Assembly: GCA_016840855.1 (NCBI GenBank)
Contig: JAEORO010000216.1
Location: 1-29,978 of the forward strand
Source: Candidatus Thorarchaeota archaeon
Lineage (GTDB): Archaea > Asgardarchaeota > Thorarchaeia > Thorarchaeales > Thorarchaeaceae
Length of the DNA: 29,978 nucleotides
Reading direction: 5' to 3'
Position 1 is the stretch's first letter, and each line of letters begins with the position of its first letter. The notes beneath the pieces are model-generated. The model made no database searches, was not told the origin of the DNA, and was given only the letters and a program-made list of their open reading frames with translations. A program made the position numbers and the translations under genes. Shown here in pieces: positions 1,067 through 25,900 of this stretch.

Positions 1067-1203
1067 ATGAACACCTCTTTCGGATGTGCATAAATCTTGC
1101 ACAACCGTATATGAATTCTTCGATTGGGCGATGATGACTTCCAACATTTTACTTATTCAGGTCTGTTTATATTCTGCTCTGCAAACGCTGAGCAAAGACG
1201 CAA

Positions 1204-3802: not shown

Positions 3803-4318
3803 ATGACCTCTGATTCTTGGGATAATCCTGGATCCTACAATTACTGGCGACCTTTATTGGCAATAATTAATTTTGGTAGCTTATTGTTCTATGGTGCTGG
3901 ATTAATGAGACCTACAGCAGAACTATGGGACTATATTTTTGTAGCAATTGGCTGCTATTTTACTTTGAAATTTGGTCGATATATGTCCAGAGCGCACCAA
4001 TTTAAACAAACACGAATGCAACCTGGTGATATGGATGAATTTCCTAGCAAGGGAATCTATTCGAAAATTAGACAGCCAATATCCGCAGCGCTCATCTACA
4101 TGAATCTAGCATATGCTTGTTTCTATAGGTCATTTGGCTTAATTCCAGCTGTCGCGATATTCGTAGCTTTTTGGTACATGTTAGCGCGGTATGAAGATGG
4201 CAAGATGCTGAATAAGTTTGGTGATGAATACAAAGAATACATGAAATACACAGCGATGCTACGTGGCGGTTCTGATGAACAGCAAAGATTAGCATCATCT
4301 GGATATGATATGTATTAA
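3803..4318 (+). CDS. ICMT/PEMT-like membrane methyltransferase-family protein, divergent
   Basis: About 4 TM segments. GIYSKIRQP matches family GxYxxxRHP, and YEDGKMLNKFGDEYKEY matches EExxLxxxFGxxYxxY. Confidence 0.7.
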   Translation: MTSDSWDNPGSYNYWRPLLAIINFGSLLFYGAGLMRPTAELWDYIFVAIGCYFTLKFGRYMSRAHQFKQTRMQPGDMDEFPSKGIYSKIRQPISAALIYMNLAYACFYRSFGLIPAVAIFVAFWYMLARYEDGKMLNKFGDEYKEYMKYTAMLRGGSDEQQRLASSGYDMY

Positions 4319-5938: not shown

Positions 5939-6082
5939 TAGGATTCAACCTACTCTAATTTCTAAATTATCTCATCTTTATGTTCTTATTGAGCTGAATT
6001 AATAGTTCCACAAAAGTAATTACTGACATAGTCCATGCACAATTTGGGATGTAAGAGCAATAAAGCTCGGGAGTACGTAAGC

Positions 6083-9013: not shown

Positions 9014-9313
9014 TTACAAAGAGATGATTTTATCGTATTTCTCCATAAGAATGTCCACAATCTCAGGATAATCTACTTGATGTACATCCGCAACCAATCG
9101 AGAGCCAATCCCACGTTCTTCAATATGATGCTTTGAAGCATGAACAGTTACTTTTAGTTCTTCAATCTCGGCTGAATATGGACAACCTTTGTCAGCGAAA
9201 TATACTCCATCTTGAACTAATAATAGATCAATTTCAATACCCTGTGATTTCAAAGCATTGACTATTTCTTTAATGCTTGTGCAATGATTTGAAAGCCAAA
9301 TTATGTACTTCAA
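9014..9313 (-). CDS. DsrH/TusB-like sulfur relay protein
   Basis: LLLVQDGVY, EERGI and VDYPEIVDIL motifs; 99 aa; TTG start with GGAGG upstream. Confidence 0.8.
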   Translation of the reverse strand: MKYIIWLSNHCTSIKEIVNALKSQGIEIDLLLVQDGVYFADKGCPYSAEIEELKVTVHASKHHIEERGIGSRLVADVHQVDYPEIVDILMEKYDKIISL

Positions 9314-9326
9314 CTCTATTTCCTCC

Positions 9327-9677
9327 TTAGAACGTCAGAACGATTTCGTTCTCGATGAACGCTTTGGCAATGTCGTCTTCCTCGAAGACTTCCACATTCT
9401 CGAAGATCTCCTCCGTTGAGATATTTCGTTCTTCTAGAGACTTCTTGCTTGCACAAATACGACCATCAAAGCTCTCGAAAGTTGATTTAAACATTCGAAT
9501 ATGCATTATATCTTGGTTCTTTATGAGGCCATAAACTCCATCACCAATAAAGAGCAATTGTGATTGATGATCCATCCCAAACATTCCCACTGCAGCACGC
9601 CATCCTTCAGCAGCAATTATCTTTCCAAAAGGCTTGTTTGTCACGAGAACTAGCACTGGTTTTTCTGTAAACTCCAT
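9327..9677 (-). CDS. DsrF/TusC-like protein
   Basis: PFG...AEGWRAA, LFIGDGVY, SLEER and a C-terminal VLTF. Confidence 0.8.
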   Translation of the reverse strand: MEFTEKPVLVLVTNKPFGKIIAAEGWRAAVGMFGMDHQSQLLFIGDGVYGLIKNQDIMHIRMFKSTFESFDGRICASKKSLEERNISTEEIFENVEVFEEDDIAKAFIENEIVLTF

Positions 9678-9688
9678 TTTGATTACTC

Positions 9689-10057
9689 CTACATTGTCAA
9701 TGTTACTAATCTTTCAGCTTCCCCAACAATTTCTGCGAATTCTGTCAAGCCAGTGACCTCAACCCCTGATATGAAATCGCCACCAGCTTGATCGAAACCT
9801 CTCGCAGAGGTACAAAGTCCACATGCCTGGAATTCAACTCCCTCATCAGCAAGCTCCTGCAGCTTCTCATTCATTGGTCTGTCTGGATCTGGATCTTGGT
9901 TTAGTTTTGCATTATTGACGCCATCAACAAAAAGGAATACTTTAACACCATATCCCTTGGCAAGTGCAGCTTTACACAAGTCATAGAAAGTATGGCTATT
10001 TTGGTAAGTATATGGCGATGTGGTCAGTAAAACGCCAAGTATCTTCTTCTCCATCAT
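9689..10057 (-). CDS. DsrE/TusD-like sulfurtransferase
   Basis: TTSPY, VFLFVDGV and ACGLCTSARG, which carries the active-site Cys. Confidence 0.85.
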   Translation of the reverse strand: MMEKKILGVLLTTSPYTYQNSHTFYDLCKAALAKGYGVKVFLFVDGVNNAKLNQDPDPDRPMNEKLQELADEGVEFQACGLCTSARGFDQAGGDFISGVEVTGLTEFAEIVGEAERLVTLTM

Positions 10058-10133: not shown

Positions 10134-10679
10134 TCAGCCAGCTTCAAGTAGCACATTTCTCCTGTTTTTCAGAAGCTGAATTATGCCAGTAAAAGGATTG
10201 ACCATTGGAACCTGCGCTTGATAGGTTTTATAATCGGCTCCAAACTTTTCCAAGTTCAGTTCCTCTTCAGATATGACTACTAAAATGATAAAGGGAATCT
10301 GAAGGAACATACAAAAGATGCAAAGCCAATGTTGAGAGGTAAAAGCTAGGGCGATGGCAAACATAGTCCAACCTACAGAAAAAGGGTGGCGGATTATCCC
10401 ATAAATTCCTGTCTGGATAAGATCTGCAGTAAATGCCCAACTCTTTCTCTCCTCAGATGTGTCATACTTCATTAGAGCTGTTACTGATACTGTAATGATA
10501 AGAAAACTCGGTATAAATAACAACCAAGCAACCCATCTCACAGATTCAATGCCAGCAAAATTGTAACTATACGCGAATACGTAAAGCTGCAAAATGAAGA
10601 AAATGCCTCCTGCAAAATTTGCTATCTGATTCTTAAAACTGAGGGCACTTCTTGTATCTTCTGTCATTAAGAAAGTCAA
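10134..10679 (-). CDS. ICMT/PEMT-like membrane methyltransferase-family protein
   Basis: TM segments, TGIYGIIRHP and EEELNLEKFGADYKTYQAQVP. Confidence 0.8.
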   Translation of the reverse strand: MTFLMTEDTRSALSFKNQIANFAGGIFFILQLYVFAYSYNFAGIESVRWVAWLLFIPSFLIITVSVTALMKYDTSEERKSWAFTADLIQTGIYGIIRHPFSVGWTMFAIALAFTSQHWLCIFCMFLQIPFIILVVISEEELNLEKFGADYKTYQAQVPMVNPFTGIIQLLKNRRNVLLEAG

Positions 10680-10810: not shown

Positions 10811-11884
10811 ATGGTCGAAGATCCAATAATCGTCTACATGGATAAGGAAGGAAAGCAACGTGAACTCGAAATAGATGATGAAGAAACCATTTTGGATCTA
10901 TCGAAAAAAGGAGTCACAGCTATTGACCTTCAAACTGTTCTTGCAATCCCTGTATTAAAAGAGCTTGAACTAGGTGGTAATTCACTTGAAGAGATTGAAC
11001 TTTCACCATTATCTAAATGTCAGGATTTACAGAAGCTGAGTCTTTTCAAAAATCAATTCAAATCAATAAATCTAAACCCACTGAAGGATTGTAGTGTTCT
11101 TGAAGAACTCAATCTTGGTTCGAATCAACTTGAAACAGTAGATTTGTCTTCCCTAGGATCCTCCAAGTTTCTTAAGAGGTTAAGGTTATTCAATAATGGA
11201 TTGATTAAGATTGACATCAAACCTCTATCTGGTTGTGAAAGTCTTGAAACCCTTGAAATTGAGAATAATGAAATAAAATCTATAGATCTCACGCCACTAT
11301 CAAATTGCAGTAATTTTCAACAATTGAACCTCATGTATAACAAACTCAAGATGATTGATTTGGCTCCATTATCGAGTTGCACCATGCTGAGGTTCGTGTA
11401 TCTTCATCATAATCAATTGGAAAATATTGATCTCACCCCGTTTGGAAATTGCAGTGATCTACGTATTCTCCGGCTAGGTGGAAATTCAATCAAAGAGATT
11501 AATCTAATCCCTCTTTCATCATGCGTTGAGCTTCGACGTTTAGGACTTGCTATGAACAGGATTACATCATTAGATTTGAGTCCTCTAGCAGGAGCTGAAC
11601 ATCTTTCTAGTTTAGATATTGCAGGAAATCAACTAACAAAACTTGACCTTAATCCACTTGGTAACTGTGAAGAGCTTACTGAGCTTTATCTCTATAGTGA
11701 TCACCCAGAAGAGAATGAATTTACTAAATTGGATATCTCACCATTGTTCAACTGTGCAGATCTTGAGGATTTTGGTGTGAGTGACGATACAAAATTGGTA
11801 GCTGACAAGAATCTCAAGGACGAAGACGATATTCCAATAGCAATAGATGAATTATTAGACGAAAAAAGGATAGATTGGATCTAA
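10811..11884 (+). CDS. leucine-rich repeat protein (about 12 repeats of 24 aa), no signal peptide
   Basis: Consensus LxxLxLxxNxLxxIDLxPLxxCxx; GGAGGT RBS upstream. Confidence 0.92.
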   Translation: MVEDPIIVYMDKEGKQRELEIDDEETILDLSKKGVTAIDLQTVLAIPVLKELELGGNSLEEIELSPLSKCQDLQKLSLFKNQFKSINLNPLKDCSVLEELNLGSNQLETVDLSSLGSSKFLKRLRLFNNGLIKIDIKPLSGCESLETLEIENNEIKSIDLTPLSNCSNFQQLNLMYNKLKMIDLAPLSSCTMLRFVYLHHNQLENIDLTPFGNCSDLRILRLGGNSIKEINLIPLSSCVELRRLGLAMNRITSLDLSPLAGAEHLSSLDIAGNQLTKLDLNPLGNCEELTELYLYSDHPEENEFTKLDISPLFNCADLEDFGVSDDTKLVADKNLKDEDDIPIAIDELLDEKRIDWI

Positions 11885-12202: not shown

Positions 12203-12261
12203 TTCTAAAGCAAAGCGGATATAACTAAAAACTACCGACGCAAAACTAGGTTGTGCTTCAT

Positions 12262-12909
12262 ATGGTAGTTGAAATGGATGATGCTACAAGAGAGCAGGTT
12301 CGAGAAATGTTCTCAGACATAGATAATGATGTTATAATTCATCTCTTCATTGAGGAGAAGAGTTGCCTTTATTGTAATGATGTGAAGGATTTGGTAGAAC
12401 AGGTTGCAGAGTTATCTGAAAAGATCAAGATTGTTGAACATAAGGGAGCTCTAGACGGTCCTATAGCAAAAGAGATGGGTGTAAAGTTTCATCCTGCTTT
12501 GGTACTTCATGGGAAAGACAAGTATAACATCAAGTTTTATGGCATTCCTGCAGGCCACGAGTTTGGTGCCTTAATTGGATCTATTATTGATGTATCTAAA
12601 GGAACAGCACCGTTACCGCCCGACATCATTGAGGACATCATTTCAATTGACAAGCCAATAAACATCAAGGTGTTTGTGACCCCTCAGTGTCCATATTGTC
12701 CAAATATGACAAGGTTAGCTCATCAAGCAGCTATTTTGAATCCACTCATTACCTCAGAGATGTATGAATCCCTTGAGTTTCAGCAATTGACAGAGAAGTA
12801 TGAAGTATTTGGTGTTCCCAAGACCATTATCAATGAAACTACTACTATTGATGGTCTATCACCTGTTGAAATGTTTGTTGAGAAACTTTTCGAAGCCATT
12901 GATACATGA
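12262..12909 (+). CDS. protein disulfide oxidoreductase (PDO, two thioredoxin folds)
   Basis: CLYC and CPYC motifs, plus FYGIPAGHEF and VFGVPKT. Start is ATG 12262 or GTG 12253. Confidence 0.9.
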   Translation: MVVEMDDATREQVREMFSDIDNDVIIHLFIEEKSCLYCNDVKDLVEQVAELSEKIKIVEHKGALDGPIAKEMGVKFHPALVLHGKDKYNIKFYGIPAGHEFGALIGSIIDVSKGTAPLPPDIIEDIISIDKPINIKVFVTPQCPYCPNMTRLAHQAAILNPLITSEMYESLEFQQLTEKYEVFGVPKTIINETTTIDGLSPVEMFVEKLFEAIDT

Positions 12910-12951
12910 CACTTCCAAAAATGATTATAGAGAGAATGGGTTTCAGGAGTT

Positions 12952-13236
12952 ATGGAAACCCAATCTTTTGTCATAATGCTGAGACCTACAAACGACTATG
13001 GTGTTCAAGGTACAAACGAAAAAGTGTCTGAGCACTTCAAATACCTCCAGAGTCTTTTGAAAGATGGAACCTTAACTATGGCAGGTAGGTTTTCAGAGGT
13101 ACTTATTGGACTTGTAATGATTGAAGCAAAATCGAGAGATAACGCTCTCGAAATCATGCGAAATGATCCTGCAGTTAAATCAGGAATATTTCATGCAGAA
13201 CTTTATCCCTGGCGTATTGCTTTGAAAGCGGAATAG
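12952..13236 (+). CDS. YciI family protein
   Basis: EHFKYL...MAGR...NDPAVKSG...ELYPW; GGAG RBS upstream. Confidence 0.82.
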   Translation: METQSFVIMLRPTNDYGVQGTNEKVSEHFKYLQSLLKDGTLTMAGRFSEVLIGLVMIEAKSRDNALEIMRNDPAVKSGIFHAELYPWRIALKAE

Positions 13237-13242
13237 GATAAT

Positions 13243-14178
13243 TTAGTCATCTTGGCATGTGAAGGTGAACTCAGTTTCATTAACATATTTGTAGGCTTGA
13301 TATGCAGCATGAACACCTTCGGCAACGCCTGTGATAGCTTGTTTGAACTCACTATCCACAACATCCCCCGCGGCATATATACCTTCAATATTAGTGCGAC
13401 TTGAACGATCAATCTTAATCTCACCTTTTTCGTTCAACTCAACACCAAGCTTCTTTGCCAATTCAGAATATGGGATTCCACCAATTGCAATAAAGATTCC
13501 ATCAAGTGTCAAGATATCTTTATCATTGTAAGGTTTGTCCAGTTTGACTCCCATAACTCTCTGGTCACCAAGTATCTCAGTGACATTTGTTTCAGTTATG
13601 ACCTCTATCTTTGGTTCTCTTTCTACACGACGAGCATTCACAGGTTCAGGTCGAATTTTTTGTCTTCGATAGATTATGTACACTTTAGGACAATATTTTG
13701 CCAAGAGCAATGCTTCCTTGACCGCGCTATCACTTCCGCCTACAACCCCCACTACTTTATCTTTATACAGCGGAGCATCACATAGGGCACAATAGCTAAC
13801 ACCTTTATTCTTCAGTTCGTCATGACCTGGGACCTCAAGCTCGCGTTCCTTCATACCTGTCGCGAAGAGTACTGACTTTGCCAAGAATGTCTTGTTTTCT
13901 GTGATCACATAGAAGATATTCTCTTTTGTTCTAAAGATGTCAGTCACAGTTCCGGTTTCAAGTAATACAGGGTAATCTAAAGCATGTTCCTTCAACTTAT
14001 CTGCAAGTTCCTGACCAGTCATCTGTATATACCCAGGATAATTTGCTACGTCATCAGTAAGGGTTATGGTCCCACCTTCTACGCTTCCAATTACCACTAC
14101 GCTTAGGTCTAAGCGTGCAGCATACATTGCAGCACCGTATCCTGTTACTCCAGAACCAATCACAACTAGATCGTACAC
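13243..14178 (-). CDS. trxB: thioredoxin reductase
   Basis: GSGVTG FAD-binding motif, GVSYCALCD redox centre, GGSDSA, IYRR and GIYAAGD. Confidence 0.92.
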   Translation of the reverse strand: MYDLVVIGSGVTGYGAAMYAARLDLSVVVIGSVEGGTITLTDDVANYPGYIQMTGQELADKLKEHALDYPVLLETGTVTDIFRTKENIFYVITENKTFLAKSVLFATGMKERELEVPGHDELKNKGVSYCALCDAPLYKDKVVGVVGGSDSAVKEALLLAKYCPKVYIIYRRQKIRPEPVNARRVEREPKIEVITETNVTEILGDQRVMGVKLDKPYNDKDILTLDGIFIAIGGIPYSELAKKLGVELNEKGEIKIDRSSRTNIEGIYAAGDVVDSEFKQAITGVAEGVHAAYQAYKYVNETEFTFTCQDD

Positions 14179-14182
14179 CCTA

Positions 14183-14425
14183 TCACACTCCTATCATTCG
14201 TTTAATTCTTCTTTCAGTTCTACGATCAAATCCGATGAAGATTTCTCCATCCATCTTAGTCACTGGCACAGCCATTTGGCCGCTTAATTCCTTGAGTTCT
14301 TGGATTGCATCAGGATTTTTGAGAATACATTTCTCAATGATCTCAACATTGTTACTAGTGAGAAACTCCTTCACCATTTTTGAGTGTGGACAATCTGGTG
14401 CAGTATATACAACAGCTTTGGTCAT
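14183..14425 (-). CDS. glutaredoxin/NrdH-like protein with CxxS
   Basis: VYTAPDCPHS, SGQMAVPV and IGFD. Likely start ATG 14425; the gene ends 4 nt before trxB. Confidence 0.85.
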   Translation of the reverse strand: MTKAVVYTAPDCPHSKMVKEFLTSNNVEIIEKCILKNPDAIQELKELSGQMAVPVTKMDGEIFIGFDRRTERRIKRMIGV

Positions 14426-14580
14426 CAATGAACACTTCCAATACCCAAATTCGAGCGTCAAATTGATTTATGCGTACACTGATATAAATTATGAATAGTA
14501 CACACGAGTATTTCGACTCTTTGATAACAATCTTAAGCAAAAATTGAGTTGAAAGCTCTTAGAATTGGAGTGAGCTATAT

Positions 14581-15057
14581 ATGAACAAGGAAGAAACTCT
14601 CGCTTTCATCGATAAGCAAATCGAACTTGAAAAGAAGATTGTAGAGATTGTTTCTGAGAATGTTGCACAACTTGGGAACGCTTTTGTCAAGGACCTTCTT
14701 CTCGCAGTTTCAACAGATTCCAAGAAACATGCTGAGCTGCTCAAGTCCCTTCGAAAGGCTGTTGAAGGACCAACACCTTTCATCAGCGAGAAAGAAAGAG
14801 ATAAGATTGCCAGAGGAATTGAGGCGCACATTAAGATGGAAGAACAAGCTGTAGTGACTTATGGAGAACTTGTAGAGAAAAGTAATAGCGAGCAGGTAAA
14901 AACCATCGCAAGCATGATTCGAGAGGATGAGTTTCGCCATCATGCGCTTCTGAAGGAACTACACAAAGCAGTTATTGAACCTGAAACTCTCACTGAGGAT
15001 GATATCTGGGATGTAATGTGGAAGGACACACCTTGGAAAGGTAGCCCTGGTGGTTAG
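14581..15057 (+). CDS. ferritin-like four-helix protein
   Basis: Two helix-pair repeats (QIELE...DSKKH and HIKME...DEFRHH) and a C-terminal WKDTPWKGSPGG tail. Confidence 0.75.
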   Translation: MNKEETLAFIDKQIELEKKIVEIVSENVAQLGNAFVKDLLLAVSTDSKKHAELLKSLRKAVEGPTPFISEKERDKIARGIEAHIKMEEQAVVTYGELVEKSNSEQVKTIASMIREDEFRHHALLKELHKAVIEPETLTEDDIWDVMWKDTPWKGSPGG

Positions 15058-15061
15058 TATA

Positions 15062-15613
15062 TTATTGGTCAGAAGCATACCTGTCTACTATTGATATGAA
15101 ACCTTCATCTAGTTGGTCAAACCCAATACCAGTTCTGGCAGATATCATTTGACCAACCATATTGTATTTCTCTATGAGATAGCGCATCTCATTGCTGACA
15201 AAATCAAACCGTGCTTCGTCCAAAAGGTCAACCTTGTTTGCCACAAGCATGAATCTTGATCCATCACCGTTGTTTAATCTGAGATTACTGTTCTCCTCTA
15301 TAGCTGGAATCCAATATCCTTCCAGATTATCCAATGTTTGCATTCTTGTGACATCAAAGAACAAAAGACCAACAGATGCCCCTCTAATCATTGCCTTCAT
15401 TTGTTCGATGAACCGAAGCTGTCCTCCAAAGTCCCAGATGCTTAGAACTACATCTTTCCCACTCGGAGTAGTCACATGTTTAGTATCAAAGCTAGCGCCA
15501 ATAGTTGTTCTAAGAAAATTGGGATCCGGAAAATTACCTGTTGTATACCTTTGAGTGAACGAGGTCTTACCACATTCTGTATCCCCAAGGACGACAGCTT
15601 TCAAGATCTTCAT
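15062..15613 (-). CDS. Ras-superfamily (Rab-like) small GTPase
   Basis: G1 GDTECGKTS, G2 TTIG, G3 WDFGGQ, G4 NKVD, G5 SAR. No C-terminal Cys. Confidence 0.93.
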   Translation of the reverse strand: MKILKAVVLGDTECGKTSFTQRYTTGNFPDPNFLRTTIGASFDTKHVTTPSGKDVVLSIWDFGGQLRFIEQMKAMIRGASVGLLFFDVTRMQTLDNLEGYWIPAIEENSNLRLNNGDGSRFMLVANKVDLLDEARFDFVSNEMRYLIEKYNMVGQMISARTGIGFDQLDEGFISIVDRYASDQ

Positions 15614-15622
15614 TTATTTCAC

Positions 15623-17062
15623 CTAATGTTCCAACACTATTGAACCATCCTCTTCTACACCATGGTCACTAAGTTCATCTAATTCTTTAACAGTGCGAGA
15701 TAAACGTGCTACTACAGGAGGACTGCTGAAAACTGCGATTCCACCTGCTAGTAACAAAATAGCAATAGAAATAATTGGAATTGCAGGAGGTTCTGGTGGA
15801 ATAATATCAGAATACATTGAAACGATTGCTATCATCAGAGCAGAAATAATAAACATCATCAATCGCCTCGCTGCAACAACTCCACCTGCTCTTGCTATTC
15901 GAACAGATAGTCGAATAAACATGAGTGTACCTATAGCAATGATAAGTCCAATTGCCATCCAGACATAATCATTGTAGACAGTAGTTGGCTGAGTCAATGG
16001 AAAAGTCATATATGCCACAGATGTTCCGAAGATAATCATTGTTTCACGAGTGAATGTCAGTACCCAATCACCATAGAATGAGGATGCAGCTGCCAGCATA
16101 AACGCGATAATTGCACAAGAAACAAGGACAGCATCAACCCAAACAAGATATCGATTCCATGCCATTCTTTGATTAATGTATAAGGACCATGATAGAGAAT
16201 GTGTAGAAACTACTAATGCTATGAAGGTGACAACTGCTCCCAAGTAAAGGGGCATTCTAGCACCGGTTTGTTCTGCTTGGGCGAGGAAGTACTCCAATGG
16301 AGCAATCAAACATAATGCTGCGAATAATTCAACAATAACAAAGTAAAAAGTTGGCCAAGCTCCAGCTCGCAATGAAGCTATAAGTAAAGGCATTTCGATT
16401 GTTATGGTGAAGAACAGTATGAAGGTGGCCATTGTAGTTCTCCAAGGTCTGCGAATGGAACTAAAAACTGTAGCAGCTACGATAAGGGGAATAACTTGCA
16501 GAATATAGTACTGTGGATGGGCAAATGTCCAGTCTGTAGCTGCGATGATCCAAGTCGCCATATATAAAATAAGAACCACAAGCAAAGATGCTGAGAAGGT
16601 CGAAGGGTTCTCGCGCAAGAGCACCACTGCTAGGTAAACAGACACTATTAGCAAAATGGATAATCCAATCAACATGAAATAAAACAGGAATCCAAAGTAT
16701 CCTTCCAAAAAATTACTAGCAAAAACAGCTGCGATAATGAGGGTTGTGATGACTGTACCCTGTTTTGCGCGATGTGTCGGAAAGAGAATCCATAATTCGG
16801 CGACCACAATGGCTCCGAGAAAGAAGGCTCCGGTACCTGTAATCATGAACATTAGTGGTTCATTCATGATTAGGAAGATTTCAAGAGCCATTGCAATCCC
16901 AGTCAACGAATAGGCAAACAATGCACGTTTCGTTTCCAAACCAATATCAGAGTAAATTTCTCGAATTCGTCTAGCAAAGACAAGTAGAGATAATAATAGA
17001 ATCAGAATAATTACTGTTCCCGAATCAACGAGTGCCTTATCAAAATCTATTGGTATTTGCAT
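15623..17062 (-). CDS. polytopic membrane protein, about 15 TM segments
   Basis: 479 aa of alternating hydrophobic stretches and short loops, with an acidic C-terminal tail. Confidence 0.8.
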   Translation of the reverse strand: MQIPIDFDKALVDSGTVIILILLLSLLVFARRIREIYSDIGLETKRALFAYSLTGIAMALEIFLIMNEPLMFMITGTGAFFLGAIVVAELWILFPTHRAKQGTVITTLIIAAVFASNFLEGYFGFLFYFMLIGLSILLIVSVYLAVVLLRENPSTFSASLLVVLILYMATWIIAATDWTFAHPQYYILQVIPLIVAATVFSSIRRPWRTTMATFILFFTITIEMPLLIASLRAGAWPTFYFVIVELFAALCLIAPLEYFLAQAEQTGARMPLYLGAVVTFIALVVSTHSLSWSLYINQRMAWNRYLVWVDAVLVSCAIIAFMLAAASSFYGDWVLTFTRETMIIFGTSVAYMTFPLTQPTTVYNDYVWMAIGLIIAIGTLMFIRLSVRIARAGGVVAARRLMMFIISALMIAIVSMYSDIIPPEPPAIPIISIAILLLAGGIAVFSSPPVVARLSRTVKELDELSDHGVEEDGSIVLEH

Positions 17063-17066
17063 TGCA

Positions 17067-17444
17067 TTAACCCCATAAACTACTTATCTCTCGCCCTCTT
17101 CTTCGAAGCGCTTTGGTAACAATTTGTGTTAGCCAGTCTTCCGAAGCATTTTCATTTTCCATTATCAGTGAAAGGACAGGATTGGCTTCTTTCTCGCTAT
17201 CAGCTTCACAGATGAACAGATGTTTTGCACGTTGAACATAACCCACAACACCCTTGCCAGATTTCATATAACTGGGAGTATTTGATTCGACAGGAGTTGG
17301 TCCATCTCTCTTAAGGGCTGTTGAAACAAGCTGGACAATTCCTGTTAGAAGAGCTACTCTCTCTGAACTCTGTTCTTCAGGGGGATACAATACCTTTGAT
17401 TCCATATTGTCTAACATAACTCTGGCAACCATACGAACAACCAT
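17067..17444 (-). CDS. hypothetical protein, longin-like fold suspected
   Basis: 125 aa with an apparent strand-strand-helix-strand-strand-strand-helix-helix pattern. The ATG overlaps the upstream stop (TAATG). Confidence 0.6.
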   Translation of the reverse strand: MVVRMVARVMLDNMESKVLYPPEEQSSERVALLTGIVQLVSTALKRDGPTPVESNTPSYMKSGKGVVGYVQRAKHLFICEADSEKEANPVLSLIMENENASEDWLTQIVTKALRRRGREISSLWG

Positions 17445-17743
17445 TAGGATTTACCTCCGAAAGCCTTTGTTAACCAGTCAATTTCCTTGGAGTCTTTCTT
17501 TTTCGACTCGGTTTTATCACTAGCAGATCGATGCGGTACTACAATGTCACGGATGCCCAAACCTTCTCCATTGCGGAGATTGTAGAGAGTCACCAAAAGC
17601 TCATGGTCCTTCTCACATCTGACAATAAGTGTTGGAGAGCGACCTTCATTTTGAATCCGTTCTTTCACTGTATCTGCCTCAGTGTCACTCATTTGGACTG
17701 AAGCATTACCTTTGCATTCTGGACATTTAAAACGGATTTCCAT
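17444..17743 (-). CDS. small zinc-finger-like protein
   Basis: FKCPECKG...VRCEKDH (C2-CH ligand set); AGAGGT RBS upstream. Confidence 0.65.
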   Translation of the reverse strand: MEIRFKCPECKGNASVQMSDTEADTVKERIQNEGRSPTLIVRCEKDHELLVTLYNLRNGEGLGIRDIVVPHRSASDKTESKKKDSKEIDWLTKAFGGKS

Positions 17744-17947
17744 TGCAGCATGCTACCTCTATCGTTGGCCCCGTTTTTTTCTGGAAATGAATTACTTAAG
17801 GTTAATTCGTCGAGAGCCCAGAAAAATAGCTAAAATTCTTGATTGATAAAAGGTGAGTATTACTATGCGACTGCCCTAAGCCAATGCTTATGTTGAATTG
17901 GAACTGATGATTCTAGTACCATTTAAAATCGGAGCGCGAAATTGCTT

Positions 17948-20519: not shown

Positions 20520-23500
20520 TTATTTGAAGGCTTCATCGAGAATTGTGGTTGGTAAACTCGCTTTCTCAACTATTGCACTAATTTCATCTCGATTCAAGTA
20601 CTTTGCAAGGTCGCGAATATATTCTATAAAACGCTCATTCTCTGAACTAACCATTGATCGAGCATTGAATAGAAATACAAACGAAATTTCAGTTAATTCA
20701 CTACTTGGAATTTGGCTCTTCATCGATTTTTTAGCAATTCCTAGTGCCGCTTTGAAGACTCCAAGTCTGAATGCAGATGTTGCTTGTGGCTTCCATTTTT
20801 CTAGTACCTGAATCAGCGCATCTCTGTAAGCAGCTTCAACGTCTGGGGTCCACACAGCTCGACCAAATTCGTTGACTTTTAGTTTCATATGGCGTCTCAG
20901 GATTCTGTCTCTATCAATTGGATTTTCCATCAATTGATTTGCAAGCTCGATTTGTTTTTCGACTCCTACACTATTTTGAAGGTAAAGAGAAATTTGATTC
21001 GGCGAAATTCTATCCTTGGCACTAAGACATGCGATGATTGCTGATACAGGATCAACGATAGGAATACCTGAGAGTATTTTATCTGCTAAATCATCGGATG
21101 ATGCCTGCAACCAATTTTCTGCATCTATTTTAAACTGGCTAGTAGTTACGAGTTCTTGGACAGCTTGGCTCAGTCTATTCTGAAGTGTTGTGGCATAGCT
21201 GCCTAGTTTGAGTTTAATTTGAGGATGCGGATCGTCAACAGCAAACATTGCGGTTCGAAGACTATAGACATAATCAGCGAGCGAATCAATGTTTGCAGAA
21301 CCGGAAACACTCCCTTGCAATACCTGTTTTTCAATCTGGTTTAGAAGTTTCTCCCCTAAAGCATGATCTTTTAGTCCAGCAATCACCGGAACCAATGTAG
21401 TACTTGTGATGTGTTCAACCGATACCCCCATTCCTTCAGCTGCAGAAGTGACTGATTTGATTGCGTCAATAGCGTCATCTATTGACTTGAGCGACCCAGT
21501 GCTAGCTGATTTTGACACAACCTGAAGTGCAGAAATGCGGTCCTTGTTACTTGGTTCTTGAATAAGTTGTTCTAGAATAGGAGAAACTGCTTCTTCCTTT
21601 GTCTTGTCACTAATACTAATTGAAGTAATGTACTTAGCTATCTCTTTTGGCTTGTAGCTAGGGGTCATCAATCTAATAACCACAGAAGCAATCTCATTTT
21701 GCTGGTTTTCATTCAAAACTTGTGTTAGTTTTATCATCTTGGGGACTGATTTGACTGAGAGTATGTTTTGCGATGCATCTTCAATTCTGCCAAGGTTCAT
21801 CAAAAATCTCATGAGATGCTCATTATCCACACGTTCTTTTATTACTGAAAGAAGTAATTCCTGGTTTGAGGGGTCTCGTTGAAGTTTCGATGCAATGTAT
21901 AGAAGATCTCCTTCGGACTGGGAAACAAATTTTGATTGGGTTTCATCATCCATAGTATTGAGGTGATTTAGTAAATTTACAGCGTATCCGTAGTGGCTAA
22001 GAGTTGAAAGATCACGAAAAGTTTCTGCAGCTCCTTCGATATTTCCTTCCTCTAAATCTGCTATAGCTTTGTATAAGGAGCCCTTTTCCCATTGATCTAA
22101 ATTAAAGAAAACTCTGGAGGCCGTTCTAAATTCGCCTTTTAGAACCGATGCATTGGCTAGTGTTTGTAAGTCATTGAAGACAGCTCGTCCAAATTGATTC
22201 TTTAGTTTTGACATCATTTCCTCGGGTAAATTCTCTTTTACTGCTATTCTTGTTGCGGCTCGTGACATCATATTTTTGCAATAAAGATCGAATGCTTCAC
22301 CATTTTCTCCAGCAATTTCCGCATCCAGTCCTTGTTTCAATGAGGCGACTTTTGTACCTTTAATTCTTGTAAACAAACCACCTGCAACGACACACGCACT
22401 CAAAGCGGGAATGATAAACCAAATGACGGGTGAAACCCAGTGACTACTAACTAATACAAGCATGTCATAGTCACAGCATACTGTTTGTACCCCTATGGTA
22501 ATTAGCACATTCAGATTTTGTGAGCCTGTACTTCCAAAAATAACAAGCAGCTCGAAGCTGTGCGATGAGAAACCTGGCAACCATGAAGCTTCAGAAACCA
22601 AAAGGATTTCGTTATTCAAACTCACTTGAACAATTGTTTCAGCTTCAACGTCCTGAGGGTTGAACACAAGAATCTCAAGATTCCAAATTCCGAGTTCAGT
22701 GTACGCTGGTGATTCAATTGAATGAATGACTAAGTTAGGCCATTCAAGAATAACTTGAGTATAGAAAGTATCATTCGTGTTAACATCAGTAATCTCGACA
22801 TCATAGACTCCAAGAGGAGATGCAGAATTGAAATGGATATCAAAAATGCCCATCTCGGTACTGGTGCAAATCGCAGTACCTGAAGTCAGAAGATTATCTT
22901 CAGTGTCATACACATTGATGCTATATGTTCCTGCATATGCATAGATATAACCTACAGGATCATGCATACCTAATGGAAGATGATAGGTTGACCCTGGATG
23001 AGCACGAGCAGTTCTTGAAGGGCCAACACTCACGCATCTATCCATTATCGGATAGCATTGAGCATTCCAATCGTAGAATGTGATATCTGGATCGCCGAAT
23101 ATAATGAATTGCAGAGAACTTGCACCTATAACTGCGGCATCTGATGATGAAACATAACTATCAAGTCCGATATCGGATAACGCATATCGATGAGAATTTA
23201 TATCAAAAGCTGAATCGATAGCTTCTCCTAGTGTTTCATGATTATTAACCATAGACTGAACAACATTGTATTCAAACATATCCGCAGGTCCTACAAAAGT
23301 GTCCGTCCGGCAGGCAAGAACTGCGTCAGCACCGCTTTCCATAATGGTACTTGGACCATAGCTTGATCCAACTTGACAAGAGTCTAAGAACGCAAACATT
23401 CCGCGGAGGTTTGCACCCGTCACAAGTTCACTGATGTTGTAGATGTTCATATAGTTCTCAGGAGGGTATACAACATATTGGGGACTTTCTTCAGTATCAG

Positions 23501-25751
23501 CATCTGGTGAGGATGCTGAACGTCCACTATCATATCCACGCCATGTGTTAGTATAGAATAATGCTACCCGGCCATCGTGTTCGTATAGGTCATATCCTAT
23601 TCCTCCGTGTATTGTAGCAATCCATGTGTAAGGAGCGGTATTCAATTCACTAATTGTACTTGGGCCAACCTGCATTACTGGTGAGAGTCCGGAAGTTGAT
23701 ACTAATGATGAGAAGTCATTTGAATTATCAATAGTTCTGTACGCTCTGTTGTTTGCCATCACTTGGTCCCCATATGAATAAACAAGATAACTTCCAAGGA
23801 CCTCATGAGACCTACTAGACAGTGACATGAGTGGTATCCTAAGAACTGAACGCATTAGTTGTACAAGAGTTGCTTCTGTATTAATAGAGGAATATCGTCC
23901 CGCATCAGCTAATCCTGTCAGTGCTCTCTCAAAAGATGGTGGAAGGGCTTCACCAGGCCCATAATATGGTGCAATGGTGATAACATTATCTACAGAATCA
24001 ATACCAGCGATTGACGATAACCACGGAAAGAATCGGTCAGCTATTGCTGTCATTGTTGTGATAGGAGGGTTCATGTCACTAAAGTCCGCATCATTAGTCC
24101 AGAAATCTATCAATGAAAATGTAGCAATAAGGGGCATCTGGTATTCCCTATTCCAGCTGAGTTGCTCTGGAATTTGTGAGAGAGTCATTAACCCAGAGTC
24201 TGCATAACTGTAAGGAATCGCTGGGCAACCTCTCTGGGTTGCGGACAAACCAGCAGCTGCAAAGGAAGTTCCTAAGGAATCATAAAGAGCTACCGACCCA
24301 AGTGAGTTACTTCTTTCATCAAGAGCAGAAAGAAGTATTTGGACTTCAGTGAAGTTTTCTACCGCATTCACATTGCAACCTAATGCCTCGAGCTCATTCC
24401 TAATTGTAGAATCACCTTGACCTGTTGGATTCATAAAATAAACAGTTTGAGGAGAGATGTATTGAATGGCCTGTTCTGTGACAGAATCAAGAGATCTCCC
24501 ATTTGTGTATAGAAGCGGTGCACCAAGATGTGACGCAAGACTAGCACCATTTGCAGCATTTGCTGCAGCTGCCTGAAAGTCATTATTAATCACATTTTTC
24601 ACTATGCTTAGGTCATAGGACACAGAAGTATCTTCTGCACTGTAAACATATGCTCTATACGAACCAGGAGTTGGGTGGGATAAGCTTACAGAAATCTCAC
24701 TGACTTCGTTAACACCCTCAAACAACGCAAATCTATTGGCATTTAGAATGATATTGCCAGAAGGATCCAATACATTGAGACCAATATTTCGAGGTGTACC
24801 GCCAATGACTGATAAATCAAAGTCTATTTTGCAGTCTTCTCCAGGGGCAACAGTGAAGGTGTAGAAGTCAGCATCTGGAATATCTATATCGAAGTGAAGG
24901 TTGACTGTCCTGCTATACTCATAGAAATCAATTGCATGAAGAATCCAAGTCGAACCTGGACGTTCATCGTAAGGATACATTACTGTTCGACCGTCATAAT
25001 AAGGAAAATCCATTGGATAGTATCTAGAACCTTCTTGCGCAAGCAAGTCGAACCAAATGTAACTGTCTCCACTTGTTAGCGTGATGATTGCGCCTCCTCC
25101 TGTTGGTGAGTATGTACCAAAGTATTCCCAATCCGAGCTGGCTGAAGTGCTTCCACTTCGACTCGTACTATACATCGCATTCAGAGTTGCGGATGTATCC
25201 GCGATGGTGATGCTATCAGAGTACAGAGGTGAAAATGGAGCTTCTGTAAGAACCACTGTTGAGGTCCCAGCGAAGAATTCTGTGGCAAGATTTGCAGCCA
25301 TTTCTATGTGATCAGTTCCCGAGATTGTATAATGAGTGTCTGCTATAGATGTCAGTGCTTGGTGGTCAGGATTTTGAACATTTCCAACAAAGACCAATTC
25401 ATTCAGCGACCCACCAAGCAGTTCGAGCCATTCGTTTAATGGTGATGCGTAATCTTCAATATCATCAGGCAAGACAAGTCCGGAAGTTGTGTGAGTGCTA
25501 TTGGAACGGATTGTGAGAGGCACCGCAGCAAGGTAATTGAAAGCATTTGTCAGGTCATTCCCAGAATCGCCCACCATGACTGTTAGATCCATTGGGATGA
25601 CCCCTGAATATCCCGAATATTGTGAAGGCAAAACGGATTCTAAATCAAATACTGTATTACTTTGAATTGATGACTGGATAAATGCACCCTGAATTAAAGG
25701 CGAGAAGAACATGATTGCAAACCAAATCCCCATCAGTAGCCGCTTGTTCAT
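20520..25751 (-). CDS. type I membrane protein: signal peptide, CWB2-like segments, PPC-like domain, peptidase C25-like domain, Ig-like domains, TM and cytoplasmic alpha-solenoid
   Basis: MNKR plus a hydrophobic N-terminus; ANGASLASHLGAPLLYT; TIHGG (H715), FLDSCQVG (C792) and IIFGDP; TM at about aa 1105-1127; helical C-terminal ~615 aa; GAGGAGGG RBS. Confidence 0.75.
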   Translation of the reverse strand: MNKRLLMGIWFAIMFFSPLIQGAFIQSSIQSNTVFDLESVLPSQYSGYSGVIPMDLTVMVGDSGNDLTNAFNYLAAVPLTIRSNSTHTTSGLVLPDDIEDYASPLNEWLELLGGSLNELVFVGNVQNPDHQALTSIADTHYTISGTDHIEMAANLATEFFAGTSTVVLTEAPFSPLYSDSITIADTSATLNAMYSTSRSGSTSASSDWEYFGTYSPTGGGAIITLTSGDSYIWFDLLAQEGSRYYPMDFPYYDGRTVMYPYDERPGSTWILHAIDFYEYSRTVNLHFDIDIPDADFYTFTVAPGEDCKIDFDLSVIGGTPRNIGLNVLDPSGNIILNANRFALFEGVNEVSEISVSLSHPTPGSYRAYVYSAEDTSVSYDLSIVKNVINNDFQAAAANAANGASLASHLGAPLLYTNGRSLDSVTEQAIQYISPQTVYFMNPTGQGDSTIRNELEALGCNVNAVENFTEVQILLSALDERSNSLGSVALYDSLGTSFAAAGLSATQRGCPAIPYSYADSGLMTLSQIPEQLSWNREYQMPLIATFSLIDFWTNDADFSDMNPPITTMTAIADRFFPWLSSIAGIDSVDNVITIAPYYGPGEALPPSFERALTGLADAGRYSSINTEATLVQLMRSVLRIPLMSLSSRSHEVLGSYLVYSYGDQVMANNRAYRTIDNSNDFSSLVSTSGLSPVMQVGPSTISELNTAPYTWIATIHGGIGYDLYEHDGRVALFYTNTWRGYDSGRSASSPDADTEESPQYVVYPPENYMNIYNISELVTGANLRGMFAFLDSCQVGSSYGPSTIMESGADAVLACRTDTFVGPADMFEYNVVQSMVNNHETLGEAIDSAFDINSHRYALSDIGLDSYVSSSDAAVIGASSLQFIIFGDPDITFYDWNAQCYPIMDRCVSVGPSRTARAHPGSTYHLPLGMHDPVGYIYAYAGTYSINVYDTEDNLLTSGTAICTSTEMGIFDIHFNSASPLGVYDVEITDVNTNDTFYTQVILEWPNLVIHSIESPAYTELGIWNLEILVFNPQDVEAETIVQVSLNNEILLVSEASWLPGFSSHSFELLVIFGSTGSQNLNVLITIGVQTVCCDYDMLVLVSSHWVSPVIWFIIPALSACVVAGGLFTRIKGTKVASLKQGLDAEIAGENGEAFDLYCKNMMSRAATRIAVKENLPEEMMSKLKNQFGRAVFNDLQTLANASVLKGEFRTASRVFFNLDQWEKGSLYKAIADLEEGNIEGAAETFRDLSTLSHYGYAVNLLNHLNTMDDETQSKFVSQSEGDLLYIASKLQRDPSNQELLLSVIKERVDNEHLMRFLMNLGRIEDASQNILSVKSVPKMIKLTQVLNENQQNEIASVVIRLMTPSYKPKEIAKYITSISISDKTKEEAVSPILEQLIQEPSNKDRISALQVVSKSASTGSLKSIDDAIDAIKSVTSAAEGMGVSVEHITSTTLVPVIAGLKDHALGEKLLNQIEKQVLQGSVSGSANIDSLADYVYSLRTAMFAVDDPHPQIKLKLGSYATTLQNRLSQAVQELVTTSQFKIDAENWLQASSDDLADKILSGIPIVDPVSAIIACLSAKDRISPNQISLYLQNSVGVEKQIELANQLMENPIDRDRILRRHMKLKVNEFGRAVWTPDVEAAYRDALIQVLEKWKPQATSAFRLGVFKAALGIAKKSMKSQIPSSELTEISFVFLFNARSMVSSENERFIEYIRDLAKYLNRDEISAIVEKASLPTTILDEAFK

Positions 25752-25900
25752 AGTTCAGTACCCTCCTCTATCTGAATGATTAGTTGTTCAGTCTGTTTTC
25801 TAACCCTTCTAAATCGTAACAGGGTGATTAGTAGTAAGATGCTCAGTAGTGCGGTTGCACCCAGTGCTACTATCTGTAACATGTCCACAATAAACTGCAT
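25748..25900 (-). CDS. 50-aa single-TM microprotein (absent from the ORF track)
   Basis: MQFIVDMLQIVALGATALLSILLLITLLRFRRVRKQTEQLIIQIEEGTEL. TAATG overlap with the upstream stop and ATGA overlap with the downstream start. Confidence 0.8.
   Translation of the reverse strand: MQFIVDMLQIVALGATALLSILLLITLLRFRRVRKQTEQLIIQIEEGTEL

What the first reader, a model, noticed from the sequence alone, without database searches (positions are those of the whole stretch)
15062..17743. Four-gene operon: Zn-finger, longin-like protein, ~15-TM membrane protein and Rab-like GTPase (candidate membrane-coupled GTPase switch)
Seen: four co-oriented genes separated by a TAATG overlap, a 4-nt gap and a 9-nt gap, with neighbours on the opposite strand at both ends. 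The last gene has intact G1-G5 motifs and no lipidation Cys. Known: longin domains form or scaffold GEFs for Rab-family GTPases in eukaryotes (Mon1-Ccz1, TRAPP, DENN), and Asgard genomes encode many small GTPases and longin/roadblock proteins. Inference: this is a self-contained receptor-regulator-GTPase module in which the membrane protein recruits or activates a non-prenylated GTPase.
Basis: partly seen in the sequence, partly recalled or inferred. Interest (0 to 1): 0.85.

Follow-up and report, generated by a model that had tools for sequence, protein, structure and literature searches.

The report
Thorarchaeal Rab-like GTPase membrane operon
A four-gene operon found only in Thorarchaeota-type Asgard archaea joins a Rab-like GTPase that has no lipid anchor to a zinc-ribbon protein, a small possibly longin-like protein and a 15-helix membrane protein, which names concrete candidate partners for an Asgard small GTPase.

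Summary
Four co-oriented minus-strand genes (99, 125, 479 and 183 aa) are joined by a TAATG overlap, a 4-nt gap and a 9-nt gap, and both neighbours lie on the opposite strand. The last gene is a true Ras/Rab-like GTPase. The first is a Brz-type zinc ribbon with invariant C-C-C-H ligands. The third has about 15 TM helices and no extramembrane domain.

Only three weak leads point that way.

The gene order is kept in 12 of 12 related loci. The whole cassette occurs as two old paralogous copies, A and B, in tandem in some genomes, and A partners pair with A and B with B. All four genes are under purifying selection. The two unnamed families are confined to Thorarchaeota-type MAGs.

Best reading: a self-contained, membrane-tethered small-GTPase switch. 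Its closest working analogy is MglA–MglB–GltJ(ZnR), or a longin-based Rab regulator. "Receptor" is not supported. Binding, and GAP versus GEF activity, remain untested. I rate it a new variant of a known kind, of moderate to high interest.

The parts
17791..17807 (-). Conserved promoter-like element, AATTAACCTTAAGTAAT (BRE/TATA-like, CTTAAG core), ending 47 nt upstream of the first ATG.
   Evidence: The CTTAAG core is invariant in an alignment of 11 upstream regions. L002 has no upstream DNA, and L012 was left out because its spacer is about 1 kb. The pattern AATTRRCCTTA occurs once in the window against 0.04 expected. It also lies upstream of the second cassettes in L010 and L011. Its role as a promoter is inferred.
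17444..17743 (-). Gene 1: a 99-aa zinc-ribbon protein. It has an N-terminal Brz-type zinc beta-ribbon (about residues 5-52), a variable charged linker and a conserved C-terminal E-x-D-W-x3-F-G motif.
   Evidence: C7, C10, C43 and H47 are invariant in 14 of 14 sequences. Pfam Zn_ribbon_Brz scores 21.5 bits against a cut-off of 27.9 for the window protein. It matches 14 of 14 members at E<=1, best 3.9e-6. dN/dS is 0.10.
17067..17444 (-). Gene 2: a 125-aa soluble alpha/beta protein of an orphan family ('p125'). It is possibly longin/roadblock-like and has an invariant C-terminal G-x-E-I...L-W tail.
   Evidence: 86 homologues were found. A profile search of 1.84 billion representatives gave only 15 hits, none longer than 171 aa. 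Nothing in Pfam, NCBIfam or PDB passes a threshold. dN/dS is 0.04. A GGAGGT Shine-Dalgarno-like motif lies at 17453-17458.
15623..17062 (-). Gene 3: a 479-aa polytopic membrane protein of an orphan family. It has about 15 TM helices, a predicted N-out/C-in topology, loops of 16 aa or less, and a 31-aa acidic cytoplasmic tail. Its best conserved loop is LRENPSTF (149-156).
   Evidence: No Pfam, NCBIfam, PDB or Atlas family was found. No internal repeat was found. 46 homologues were found. dN/dS is 0.15.
15062..15613 (-). Gene 4: a 183-aa Rab-like small GTPase with G1-G5 intact, no N-terminal amphipathic extension, no C-terminal tail and no C-terminal Cys.
   Evidence: Pfam Ras PF00071 scores 86.6 bits against a cut-off of 21.6. 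The best PDB chains are Ypt7 (1.6e-17), Thorarchaeota Rab 7ezb (6.6e-17) and Rab28/27/7. The motifs are invariant. NCBI names relatives 'Rab family GTPase'. dN/dS is 0.04.

Best explanation
This is a lineage-specific (Thorarchaeota-type Asgard) operon that encodes a complete, membrane-tethered small-GTPase switch.

The Rab-like GTPase has no lipid anchor, no amphipathic helix and no tail. It can therefore reach a membrane only through a protein partner. The operon-encoded 15-TM protein is the obvious anchor or target, through its conserved cytoplasmic loops (LRENPSTF, RRPWR, RE) and its acidic C-tail.

The 125-aa alpha/beta protein is probably of the longin/roadblock kind. It is translationally coupled to the zinc-ribbon protein. 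I take the two to form the nucleotide-state regulator (GAP or GEF platform) or a GTP-state adaptor of the GTPase. The zinc ribbon would act as a co-factor that docks through its conserved C-terminal W/F motif. This resembles the ZnR of GltJ, which binds MglB and boosts GAP activity on MglA.

Shown: gene structure, protein families, conservation, unit-wise duplication and purifying selection.

Inferred: co-transcription, every protein-protein contact, the direction of regulation, and the cellular process that is controlled.
For: Gene layout:
- Tight co-oriented spacing, with Shine-Dalgarno-like motifs before genes 2 and 4, and one conserved promoter-like element upstream of gene 1 only.

Conservation of order:
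- The order ZnR-p125-TM-GTPase is kept in 12 of 12 loci. Nine are complete and three are cut by contig ends. Synonymous sites are saturated against most of them, with dS above 0.8 for all but L001.

Duplication as a unit:
- L011 carries two complete tandem cassettes. The second is 48/44/27/53 % identical to the window's four proteins. L010 carries the start of a second cassette.
- The p125 and GTPase trees each split into an A and a B clade (92/16 and 59/68; B support 0.98 and 0.995).
- Clade-B p125 proteins sit three accession numbers from clade-B GTPases in 3 of 3 MAGs checked.
- 5 of 5 contig-length-matched GTPase pairs are A plus B.
- A similar AATTRRCCTTA element precedes the B cassettes as well.

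Protein features:
- The GTPase has all catalytic motifs and no membrane-targeting feature.
- The most conserved loop of the TM protein is on the predicted cytoplasmic side (mean conservation 0.95).
- The p125 leads are Intu_longin_1 (the INTU/CCZ1/HPS4 first longin) in 7 of 40 members, always in the same register (residue 20 to profile position 26), in both the A and B clades. Atlas neighbours are 'Roadblock/LAMTOR2' and a cluster with Fuz_longin_1, both at 0.89. A crude beta-beta-alpha-beta-beta-beta-alpha-alpha order fits.

Precedent:
- For ZnR plus a roadblock GAP plus a Ras-like GTPase at a membrane protein: PMC11135422, passages read.
Against:
- The longin leads are all below threshold (best E 0.017, 15.8 bits against a cut-off of 23.7). 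An equally weak and probably spurious family, DUF7812, matched more members: 12 of 40.
- Profile and single-sequence searches of the PDB found no longin or roadblock chain.
- The flanking genes (IOR upstream; rubrerythrin, glutaredoxin and thioredoxin reductase downstream) are also syntenic in these loci. Order conservation alone is therefore partly shared ancestry.
- The TM protein has no recognisable domain and evolves fastest of the four. It is 27 % identical between A and B, with dN/dS 0.15-0.24. Its role as anchor rather than regulated effector is a guess.
- The zinc ribbon's only family hint is to a domain named after a transcription regulator.
Confidence: 0.5

Rival explanations
1. Effector reading. 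The GTPase is not regulated by p125 but signals through it. p125 would be a GTP-state-specific adaptor, in the way the longin-fold SRX domain of SR-alpha binds SR-beta-GTP (recalled). The 15-TM protein would be the regulated end-point, for example a transporter, channel or membrane-shaping protein that is switched or positioned by the GTPase.
For: The evidence that the four genes form a module is the same as for the best explanation. The TM protein is a compact all-membrane protein with short loops, more like a transporter or enzyme than an anchor or receptor. L007 has two TM genes for one GTPase. This fits a variable output better than a fixed anchor.
Against: No transporter or enzyme family matches the TM protein in Pfam, NCBIfam, PDB or Atlas. 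No intramembrane charged residue is invariant. Nothing distinguishes a regulator from an effector for p125.
Confidence: 0.2
2. The zinc-ribbon protein is a Brz-like small transcription regulator. It controls the operon, or the membrane-protein gene, rather than being part of a GTPase complex. The conserved AATTRRCCTTA element would be its site.
For: Pfam Zn_ribbon_Brz matches 14 of 14 members (best E 3.9e-6). Brz is a small zinc-finger protein encoded directly upstream of, and regulating, a polytopic membrane-protein gene (PMC2253796, abstract start in the search listing only). The conserved element precedes both the A and B cassettes.
Against: The window protein is below the Pfam cut-off (21.5 against 27.9 bits). 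It is far below the NCBIfam Brz equivalog cut-off (14.2 against 100). The TAATG overlap with p125 suggests stoichiometric co-production. The protein has an extra conserved C-terminal W/F motif after a flexible linker, which looks like a protein-docking peptide. It co-duplicated and co-diverged with the other three genes. The element is equally well explained as a plain BRE/TATA promoter.
Confidence: 0.12
3. The four genes are neighbours only by inherited synteny and have no shared function. The GTPase acts elsewhere.
For: The flanking redox and IOR genes are conserved too, so these genomes keep long-range synteny. Tran et al. report that MK-D1 GTPase genes are generally not in operons with regulators (PMC10933270, passages).
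Against: - The genes overlap or lie 9 nt or less apart.
- The whole cassette is duplicated with its order kept, at 27-53 % identity.
- The A/B clades pair up.
- The B cassette is present or absent as a unit between the GTPase and the rubrerythrin gene (L011 against the window).
- p125 and the TM protein are known only in this context.
Confidence: 0.05

Closest known systems
MglA-MglB with the ZnR domain of the membrane protein GltJ (Myxococcus xanthus; PMC11135422, passages read)
   Same: A prokaryotic Ras-like GTPase is encoded next to a small alpha/beta regulator. A zinc-ribbon module linked to a membrane protein binds the regulator's C-terminal segment and boosts GAP activity. A flexible linker follows the ZnR.
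   Different: - The GTPase here is Rab-like, with a canonical DxxGQ motif.
- p125 gives no Roadblock/LC7 match at any threshold tried.
- The ZnR is a separate 99-aa protein of the Brz type, not a domain of the membrane protein.
- The 15-TM protein is unrelated to GltJ.
- No binding was tested here.
Longin-based Rab regulators, in particular Mon1-Ccz1 acting on Rab7/Ypt7 (family knowledge recalled; PMC3747258 seen in a search listing only)
   Same: The GTPase's best solved relatives are Ypt7/Rab7. The only family-level hint for p125 is the first longin domain of INTU/CCZ1/HPS4.
   Different: The eukaryotic GEFs are large multi-longin heterodimers, whereas p125 is a single 125-aa domain. The match is below threshold. 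The GTPase is not prenylated. No orthology is shown.
Asgard operon of a LAMTOR1-like Roadblock protein, a Rab-like GTPase and a DENN protein (Liu et al. preprint 10.1101/2020.10.19.343400, passages read)
   Same: It is a conserved Asgard gene neighbourhood that joins a Rab-like GTPase to a small putative Roadblock-superfamily protein, and it was proposed as a GTPase regulator module.
   Different: None of the four proteins here has a DENN domain. This cassette adds a 15-TM protein and a zinc ribbon. It is restricted to Thorarchaeota-type MAGs rather than found in most Asgard.
Thor-Rab, PDB 7ezb (PMC10933270, passages read)
   Same: It is a Thorarchaeota Rab-like GTPase with a eukaryote-like core and no C-terminal Cys. 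It is the third-best PDB match of this GTPase (E 6.6e-17).
   Different: It is a paralogue and not the same protein. The local alignment covers 130 residues and is far from identical. No partners are known for Thor-Rab. That paper notes that partners are hard to predict from genome layout.
Brz, the bacteriorhodopsin-regulating zinc-finger protein of Halobacterium (PMC2253796, search listing only)
   Same: It is a small archaeal zinc-ribbon protein encoded directly upstream of a polytopic membrane-protein gene. The Pfam domain named after it matches 14 of 14 ZnR members.
   Different: The match is below the curated cut-offs for the window protein. The ZnR here carries a linker and a C-terminal motif, has C-C-C-H ligands, and sits in a GTPase cassette.

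Membership tests
Ras-superfamily small GTPase (Pfam PF00071) | A profile match above the curated cut-off. | tested here: met
   86.6 bits against a cut-off of 21.6, E 1.8e-24, covering residues 5-167.
Ras-superfamily small GTPase (Pfam PF00071) | G1 P-loop, switch-I Thr, G3 DxxGQ, G4 NKxD and G5 SA[KR] all present. | tested here: met
   GDTECGKT, T37, DFGGQ, NKVD and SAR are present and invariant in 12 of 12 aligned sequences.
Rab family in the strict (eukaryotic) sense | The closest solved relatives are Rabs. | tested here: met
   The top PDB chains are Ypt7, Thor-Rab and Rab28/27/7/2/14. There are 435 hits in all and the best 60 listed are nearly all Rabs. NCBI names relatives 'Rab family GTPase'.
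Rab family in the strict (eukaryotic) sense | C-terminal Cys residue(s) for geranylgeranylation. | tested here: not met
   The only Cys is C14. The protein ends about 10 residues after the last helix, and there is no C-terminal Cys in any of 12 sequences.
Rab family in the strict (eukaryotic) sense | RabF motifs and phylogenetic placement inside eukaryotic Rabs. | not tested
Resemblance of the switch and interswitch regions was seen only in the pairwise alignments to Ypt7.
Longin domain | A match to a longin-family profile above the cut-off. | tested here: not met
   Intu_longin_1 matches only below threshold, in 7 of 40 members. The best is E 0.017 at 15.8 bits against a cut-off of 23.7. The window protein itself has no longin hit at E<=1.
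Longin domain | A beta-beta-alpha-beta-beta-beta-alpha-alpha sandwich fold (order recalled). | tested here: inconclusive
   Chou-Fasman propensities averaged over the 40-sequence alignment give that order, with no N-terminal helix. This is a low-accuracy method.
Roadblock/LC7 (MglB-like) | A match to PF03259, or an N-terminal helix before the first strand pair (order recalled). | tested here: not met
   There is no Robl_LC7 hit among 40 members at E<=10. The sequence starts directly with a strand-like segment. The only hint is an Atlas neighbour named 'Roadblock/LAMTOR2' at 0.89, which is a lead only.
Zinc ribbon (Brz type, PF23454) | Two metal-binding knuckles with four ligands. | tested here: met
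   C7-x2-C10 and C43-x3-H47 are invariant in 14 of 14 sequences.
Zinc ribbon (Brz type, PF23454) | A profile match above the curated cut-off, or the Brz equivalog. | tested here: inconclusive
   The window protein scores 21.5 bits against 27.9. 14 of 14 members match at E<=1, best 3.9e-6. The NCBIfam Brz equivalog scores 14.2 against 100, which is not met.
Asgard RB / Rab-like GTPase / DENN operon | A DENN-domain protein in the cassette. | tested here: not met
   None of the four proteins has a DENN hit.
Operon (single transcription unit) | Co-orientation, minimal spacing and conserved order. | tested here: met
   Spacings are -1, 4 and 9 nt. The order is kept in 12 of 12 loci.
Operon (single transcription unit) | One transcript covering all four genes. 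| not testable with these tools
   No expression data were available. Only a conserved promoter-like element upstream of gene 1 was found.
Known anti-phage defence systems (PADLOC) | Any protein matching a defence-system model. | tested here: not met
   0 of 4 proteins match at E<=0.1.

The most novel reading that the evidence does not exclude
The cassette is an archaeal prototype of Rab membrane targeting. A Rab-like GTPase with no lipid anchor would be recruited by its own dedicated polytopic membrane partner. It would be switched by a minimal single-domain longin regulator with a zinc-ribbon co-factor. The two old paralogous cassettes (A and B, each with its own GTPase, regulator pair and membrane protein) would then mark two distinct membrane sites or states in one cell. 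That would be a pre-eukaryotic form of 'one Rab, one membrane identity' that does not need prenylation.
Probability: 0.2. Interest if true: 0.85.

Novelty: new variant of a known kind. Interest (0 to 1): 0.6.

Why it matters
Asgard genomes encode dozens of small GTPases and longin/roadblock proteins, but who partners with whom is largely unknown. Tran et al. state that MK-D1 GTPase genes are generally not in operons with such regulators, which makes partners hard to predict (PMC10933270). Dey et al. list 'will operons reveal targets of Loki GTPases?' as an open question (PMC4917890).

This cassette gives one Rab-like GTPase three fixed, co-inherited, co-duplicated candidate partners, one of them a membrane protein. 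All of them are small enough to express, so three questions become directly testable:
- How a non-prenylated Rab-like GTPase reaches a membrane.
- Whether a single small alpha/beta domain can act as its GAP or GEF.
- Whether a zinc ribbon acts as a co-factor, as it does in the bacterial Mgl/GltJ system.

Tried and rejected
No model, and so no fold search, could be made for p125, the TM protein or ZnR.
- Complex prediction (ZnR + p125 + GTPase, with the GTPase as partner) was not available, and nothing was folded.
- The Atlas did not hold the window's own p125. I used a 72 %-identical stored homologue instead. The Atlas gave no named family for a TM homologue; the nearest was HisKA_7TM at 0.83, which is chance level.
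- PDB sequence and profile searches found nothing meaningful. This covers p125, ZnR and the TM protein.
- I tried to obtain true Roadblock sequences for a profile-profile test through GTPase neighbours on plasmids. There was one weak hit, a Nostoc plasmid, with no roadblock neighbour. I abandoned this route, so no hhalign test against a real longin or roadblock alignment was done.
- A defence-system reading was rejected: 0 of 4 proteins match in PADLOC.
- No internal duplication of the TM protein was found (hhalign of halves and thirds, probability 0.9 % or less).
- The sigma-70 promoter scan was no better than shuffles, and no intrinsic terminators were found. That scan is not designed for archaea.
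- A scan for clade-specific residues gave only 1 fixed A/B difference in the GTPase and 4 in p125, too few to map an interface.
Full report
**Observation**

The window carries four ORFs on the minus strand:
- 17743..17444 (99 aa, 'ZnR')
- 17444..17067 (125 aa, 'p125')
- 17062..15623 (479 aa, 'TM')
- 15613..15062 (183 aa, 'GTPase')

ZnR and p125 share one base (TAATG). The next two junctions are gaps of 4 nt and 9 nt. GGAGGT lies 8 nt before the p125 start, and AGGTGA overlaps the TM stop just before the GTPase start.

Both neighbours are on the plus strand. One is a rubrerythrin-like gene ending 4 nt from the GTPase stop. The other is a divergent 2-oxoacid:ferredoxin oxidoreductase alpha gene 198 nt upstream of ZnR.

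**What the four proteins are**

*GTPase.*
- It matches Pfam Ras at 86.6 bits (cut-off 21.6), Roc at 69.9, and Arf and Gtr1/RagA only at about 23.
- Its best solved relatives are Ypt7 (E 1.6e-17), the Thorarchaeota Rab 7ezb (6.6e-17) and Rab28/27/7.
- G1-G5 are intact and invariant in 12 of 12 aligned sequences.
- The single Cys is in the P-loop. There is no N-terminal extension and no C-terminal tail.
- It is therefore Rab-like in its core but fails the Rab criterion of a prenylatable C-terminus.

*ZnR.*
- C7, C10, C43 and H47 are invariant, as are GRSPT, TLY and LGxRD.
- After a variable charged linker comes a conserved C-terminal E-x-D-W-x3-F-G motif.
- Pfam Zn_ribbon_Brz matches 14 of 14 members (best E 3.9e-6). 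The window protein is below the cut-off at 21.5 against 27.9 bits.

*TM protein.*
- It has 15 hydrophobic segments and loops of 16 residues or fewer.
- K+R counts are 18 on the predicted cytoplasmic side and 4 outside, which gives an N-out/C-in topology.
- It has a 31-residue acidic cytoplasmic tail. Its most conserved loop (LRENPSTF, mean conservation 0.95) is on the cytoplasmic side.
- It matches no family in Pfam, NCBIfam, PDB or the Atlas and has no internal repeat.

*p125.*
- It matches nothing above threshold in Pfam, NCBIfam or PDB.

**Is p125 longin-like?**

This could not be settled. Three weak leads agree:
- Intu_longin_1 (the first longin domain of INTU/CCZ1/HPS4) matches below threshold in 7 of 40 members. 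The match is always in the same near-full-length register. It occurs in members of both paralogue clades.
- Language-model neighbours of a 72 %-identical homologue include clusters named Roadblock/LAMTOR2 and one in which 34 % of members carry Fuz_longin_1. Both score 0.89, which the tool calls a lead only.
- Alignment-averaged Chou-Fasman propensities give the order beta-beta-alpha-beta-beta-beta-alpha-alpha with no N-terminal helix. As I recall it, that is the longin order and not the roadblock order.

Against this, an obviously spurious family (DUF7812) matched even more members at similar E-values: 12 of 40. I put the chance of a longin/roadblock-type fold at about two in three.

**Conservation**

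A scan of GTDB species genomes with the TM alignment returned 12 loci, all of them Thorarchaeota-type MAGs. The order ZnR-p125-TM-GTPase, with overlapping or nearly abutting genes, is present in 12 of 12:
- Nine are complete.
- L002 is cut at the ZnR end.
- L009 and L012 are cut inside the TM gene.
- L007 has two TM genes in tandem.

Synonymous sites are saturated against all loci but L001. dN/dS against L001 is 0.10, 0.04, 0.15 and 0.04 for the four genes.

One caveat applies. The flanking IOR and redox genes are syntenic too, so conserved order alone is partly shared ancestry.

**Duplication as a unit**

The stronger argument is that the cassette duplicates as a unit.
- L011 carries two complete cassettes in tandem. 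The second is 48/44/27/53 % identical to the window's proteins. L010 carries the start of a second cassette before its contig ends.
- I built trees of 108 p125 sequences and 127 GTPase sequences. Eight GTPase fragments shorter than 170 aa were dropped. Each tree splits at the midpoint root into an A clade and a B clade (92/16 and 59/68; B support 0.98 and 0.995).
- Clade-B p125 proteins lie three accession numbers from clade-B GTPases in 3 of 3 MAGs checked.
- A clade-B TM protein is adjacent to a clade-B GTPase.
- 5 of 5 GTPase pairs that share a contig length are one A plus one B. One of these pairs is L011. Another is five accession numbers apart.
- In the window and its nearest relatives the B cassette is absent from this site. 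The cassette therefore comes and goes as a unit.

**Distribution**

- The p125 profile found only 15 representatives among 1.84 billion (13 at E<=1e-10). None is longer than 171 aa, so no fused forms were seen.
- Word-indexed searches gave 86 p125 hits, 46 TM hits and 126 GTPase hits (the last at E<=1e-20, all 50 % identical or more).
- Wherever a source names the hits, it is as Thorarchaeota. A few records carry the label 'Lokiarchaeota archaeon'.
- The module is lineage-specific and not Asgard-wide.

**Signals**

An alignment of 11 upstream regions shows an invariant CTTAAG core inside AATTAACCTTAAGTAAT, ending 47 nt before the ZnR start (window 17791-17807, minus strand). L002 has no upstream DNA, and L012 was omitted because of its roughly 1-kb spacer.

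The pattern AATTRRCCTTA occurs once in the window against 0.04 expected. It also lies upstream of the B cassettes of L010 and L011. I read it as a BRE/TATA-type promoter. A regulator site is the alternative reading. There is no room for promoters in the three internal junctions.

**Mechanism (inferred)**

A soluble Rab-like GTPase without any membrane-targeting feature is encoded with a dedicated polytopic membrane protein. That protein's best conserved features face the cytoplasm. Two small, translationally coupled proteins carry conserved C-terminal Trp motifs.

The closest working precedent is bacterial. In Myxococcus, the ZnR of the membrane protein GltJ binds the C-terminal helix of the roadblock GAP MglB and raises its GAP efficiency on MglA about fourfold (PMC11135422, passages).

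The eukaryotic analogy is longin-based Rab regulation (Mon1-Ccz1 acting on Rab7; recalled). This is hinted at only by the Ypt7 and CCZ1-longin matches.

I therefore favour a membrane-tethered switch in which p125 and ZnR set or read the nucleotide state and the TM protein is the anchor or target. Whether p125 is a GAP, a GEF or an effector, and what process is controlled, is open. 'Receptor' is not supported, because there is no ectodomain.

**Literature**

Four full-text searches found no description of this cassette.
- Liu et al. (preprint, passages) say most Asgard ESP genes are not in conserved neighbourhoods. They describe a different GTPase operon (LAMTOR1-like RB, Rab-like GTPase, DENN).
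- Tran et al. (passages) solved a paralogous Thor-Rab. They note that GTPase-regulator pairs are hard to infer from genome layout.
- The 2026 structural survey (passages) does not mention operons.
- I could not see the supplementary asCOG or structure-cluster tables, which may already list these families.

**Verdict**

This is a real, conserved and so far apparently undescribed GTPase cassette. It is a new variant of the known 'small GTPase plus small regulator' operon theme, with two orphan protein families. Its value is that it makes the question of Asgard GTPase partners directly testable.

Noticed in passing
L011:5324-10709 and L010:4109-7568: Two paralogous copies of the whole four-gene cassette (A then B) lie in tandem. 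The window and loci L001-L009 have only the A copy at this site. In some MAGs the B cassette seems to hold two genes between p125 and the GTPase, because the accession numbers are three apart.
   Followed up: partly
L007:4537-7461: There are two tandem copies of the 15-TM gene (63 % and 68 % identical to the window's) inside one cassette.
   Followed up: no
window 20520-25751 (-) and 25900-29952 (-): Two giant ORFs (1743 and 1350 aa) carry only beta-propeller (SBBP) and TSP3 repeat matches, plus a weak CWB2 hit. They are probably very large surface proteins.
   Followed up: no
window 10811-11884 (+): A 357-aa protein is made almost entirely of leucine-rich repeats (LRR_8 E 5.9e-30). This is a eukaryote-like repeat protein a few kb from the GTPase cassette.
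   Followed up: no
window 3803-4318 (+) and 10134-10679 (-): Two small membrane methyltransferase-like proteins match PEMT. The second also matches isoprenylcysteine carboxyl methyltransferase (ICMT) weakly (E 1.5e-4, below the cut-off). This is curious beside a Rab-like GTPase that has no prenylatable Cys.
   Followed up: no
window 12253-15057: A redox cluster next to the cassette holds a thioredoxin-fold protein, a YCII-like protein, thioredoxin reductase, glutaredoxin and a rubrerythrin-like protein. It is syntenic in the related loci. No functional link to the cassette is evident.
   Followed up: partly
window 2192-3706 (+) and 6035-7594 (+): Two paralogous M32 (Taq-type) carboxypeptidase genes lie within 4 kb of each other.
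   Followed up: no
window 9014-10057 (-): A DsrE/DsrE/DsrH-like (TusBCD-type) sulfur-relay trio sits next to a DUF22 protein.
   Followed up: no
window 193-525 (+) and 620-1147 (-): A ribosomal protein S26e gene and a thioredoxin-domain protein with a secondary OST3/OST6 match (E 4.7e-7).
   Followed up: no
window ~17865-17890 (-); alignment A5 columns 131-155: A second conserved block (ACATAAGCATTGGCTTAGGGCAGT in the window) lies in the divergent intergenic region, nearer the IOR gene. It is possibly the IOR promoter or a shared regulatory site.
   Followed up: no
L012:2997-4062: The spacer between IOR and the cassette is about 1 kb here, against about 200 nt elsewhere. It may hold an inserted gene or element.
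   Followed up: no
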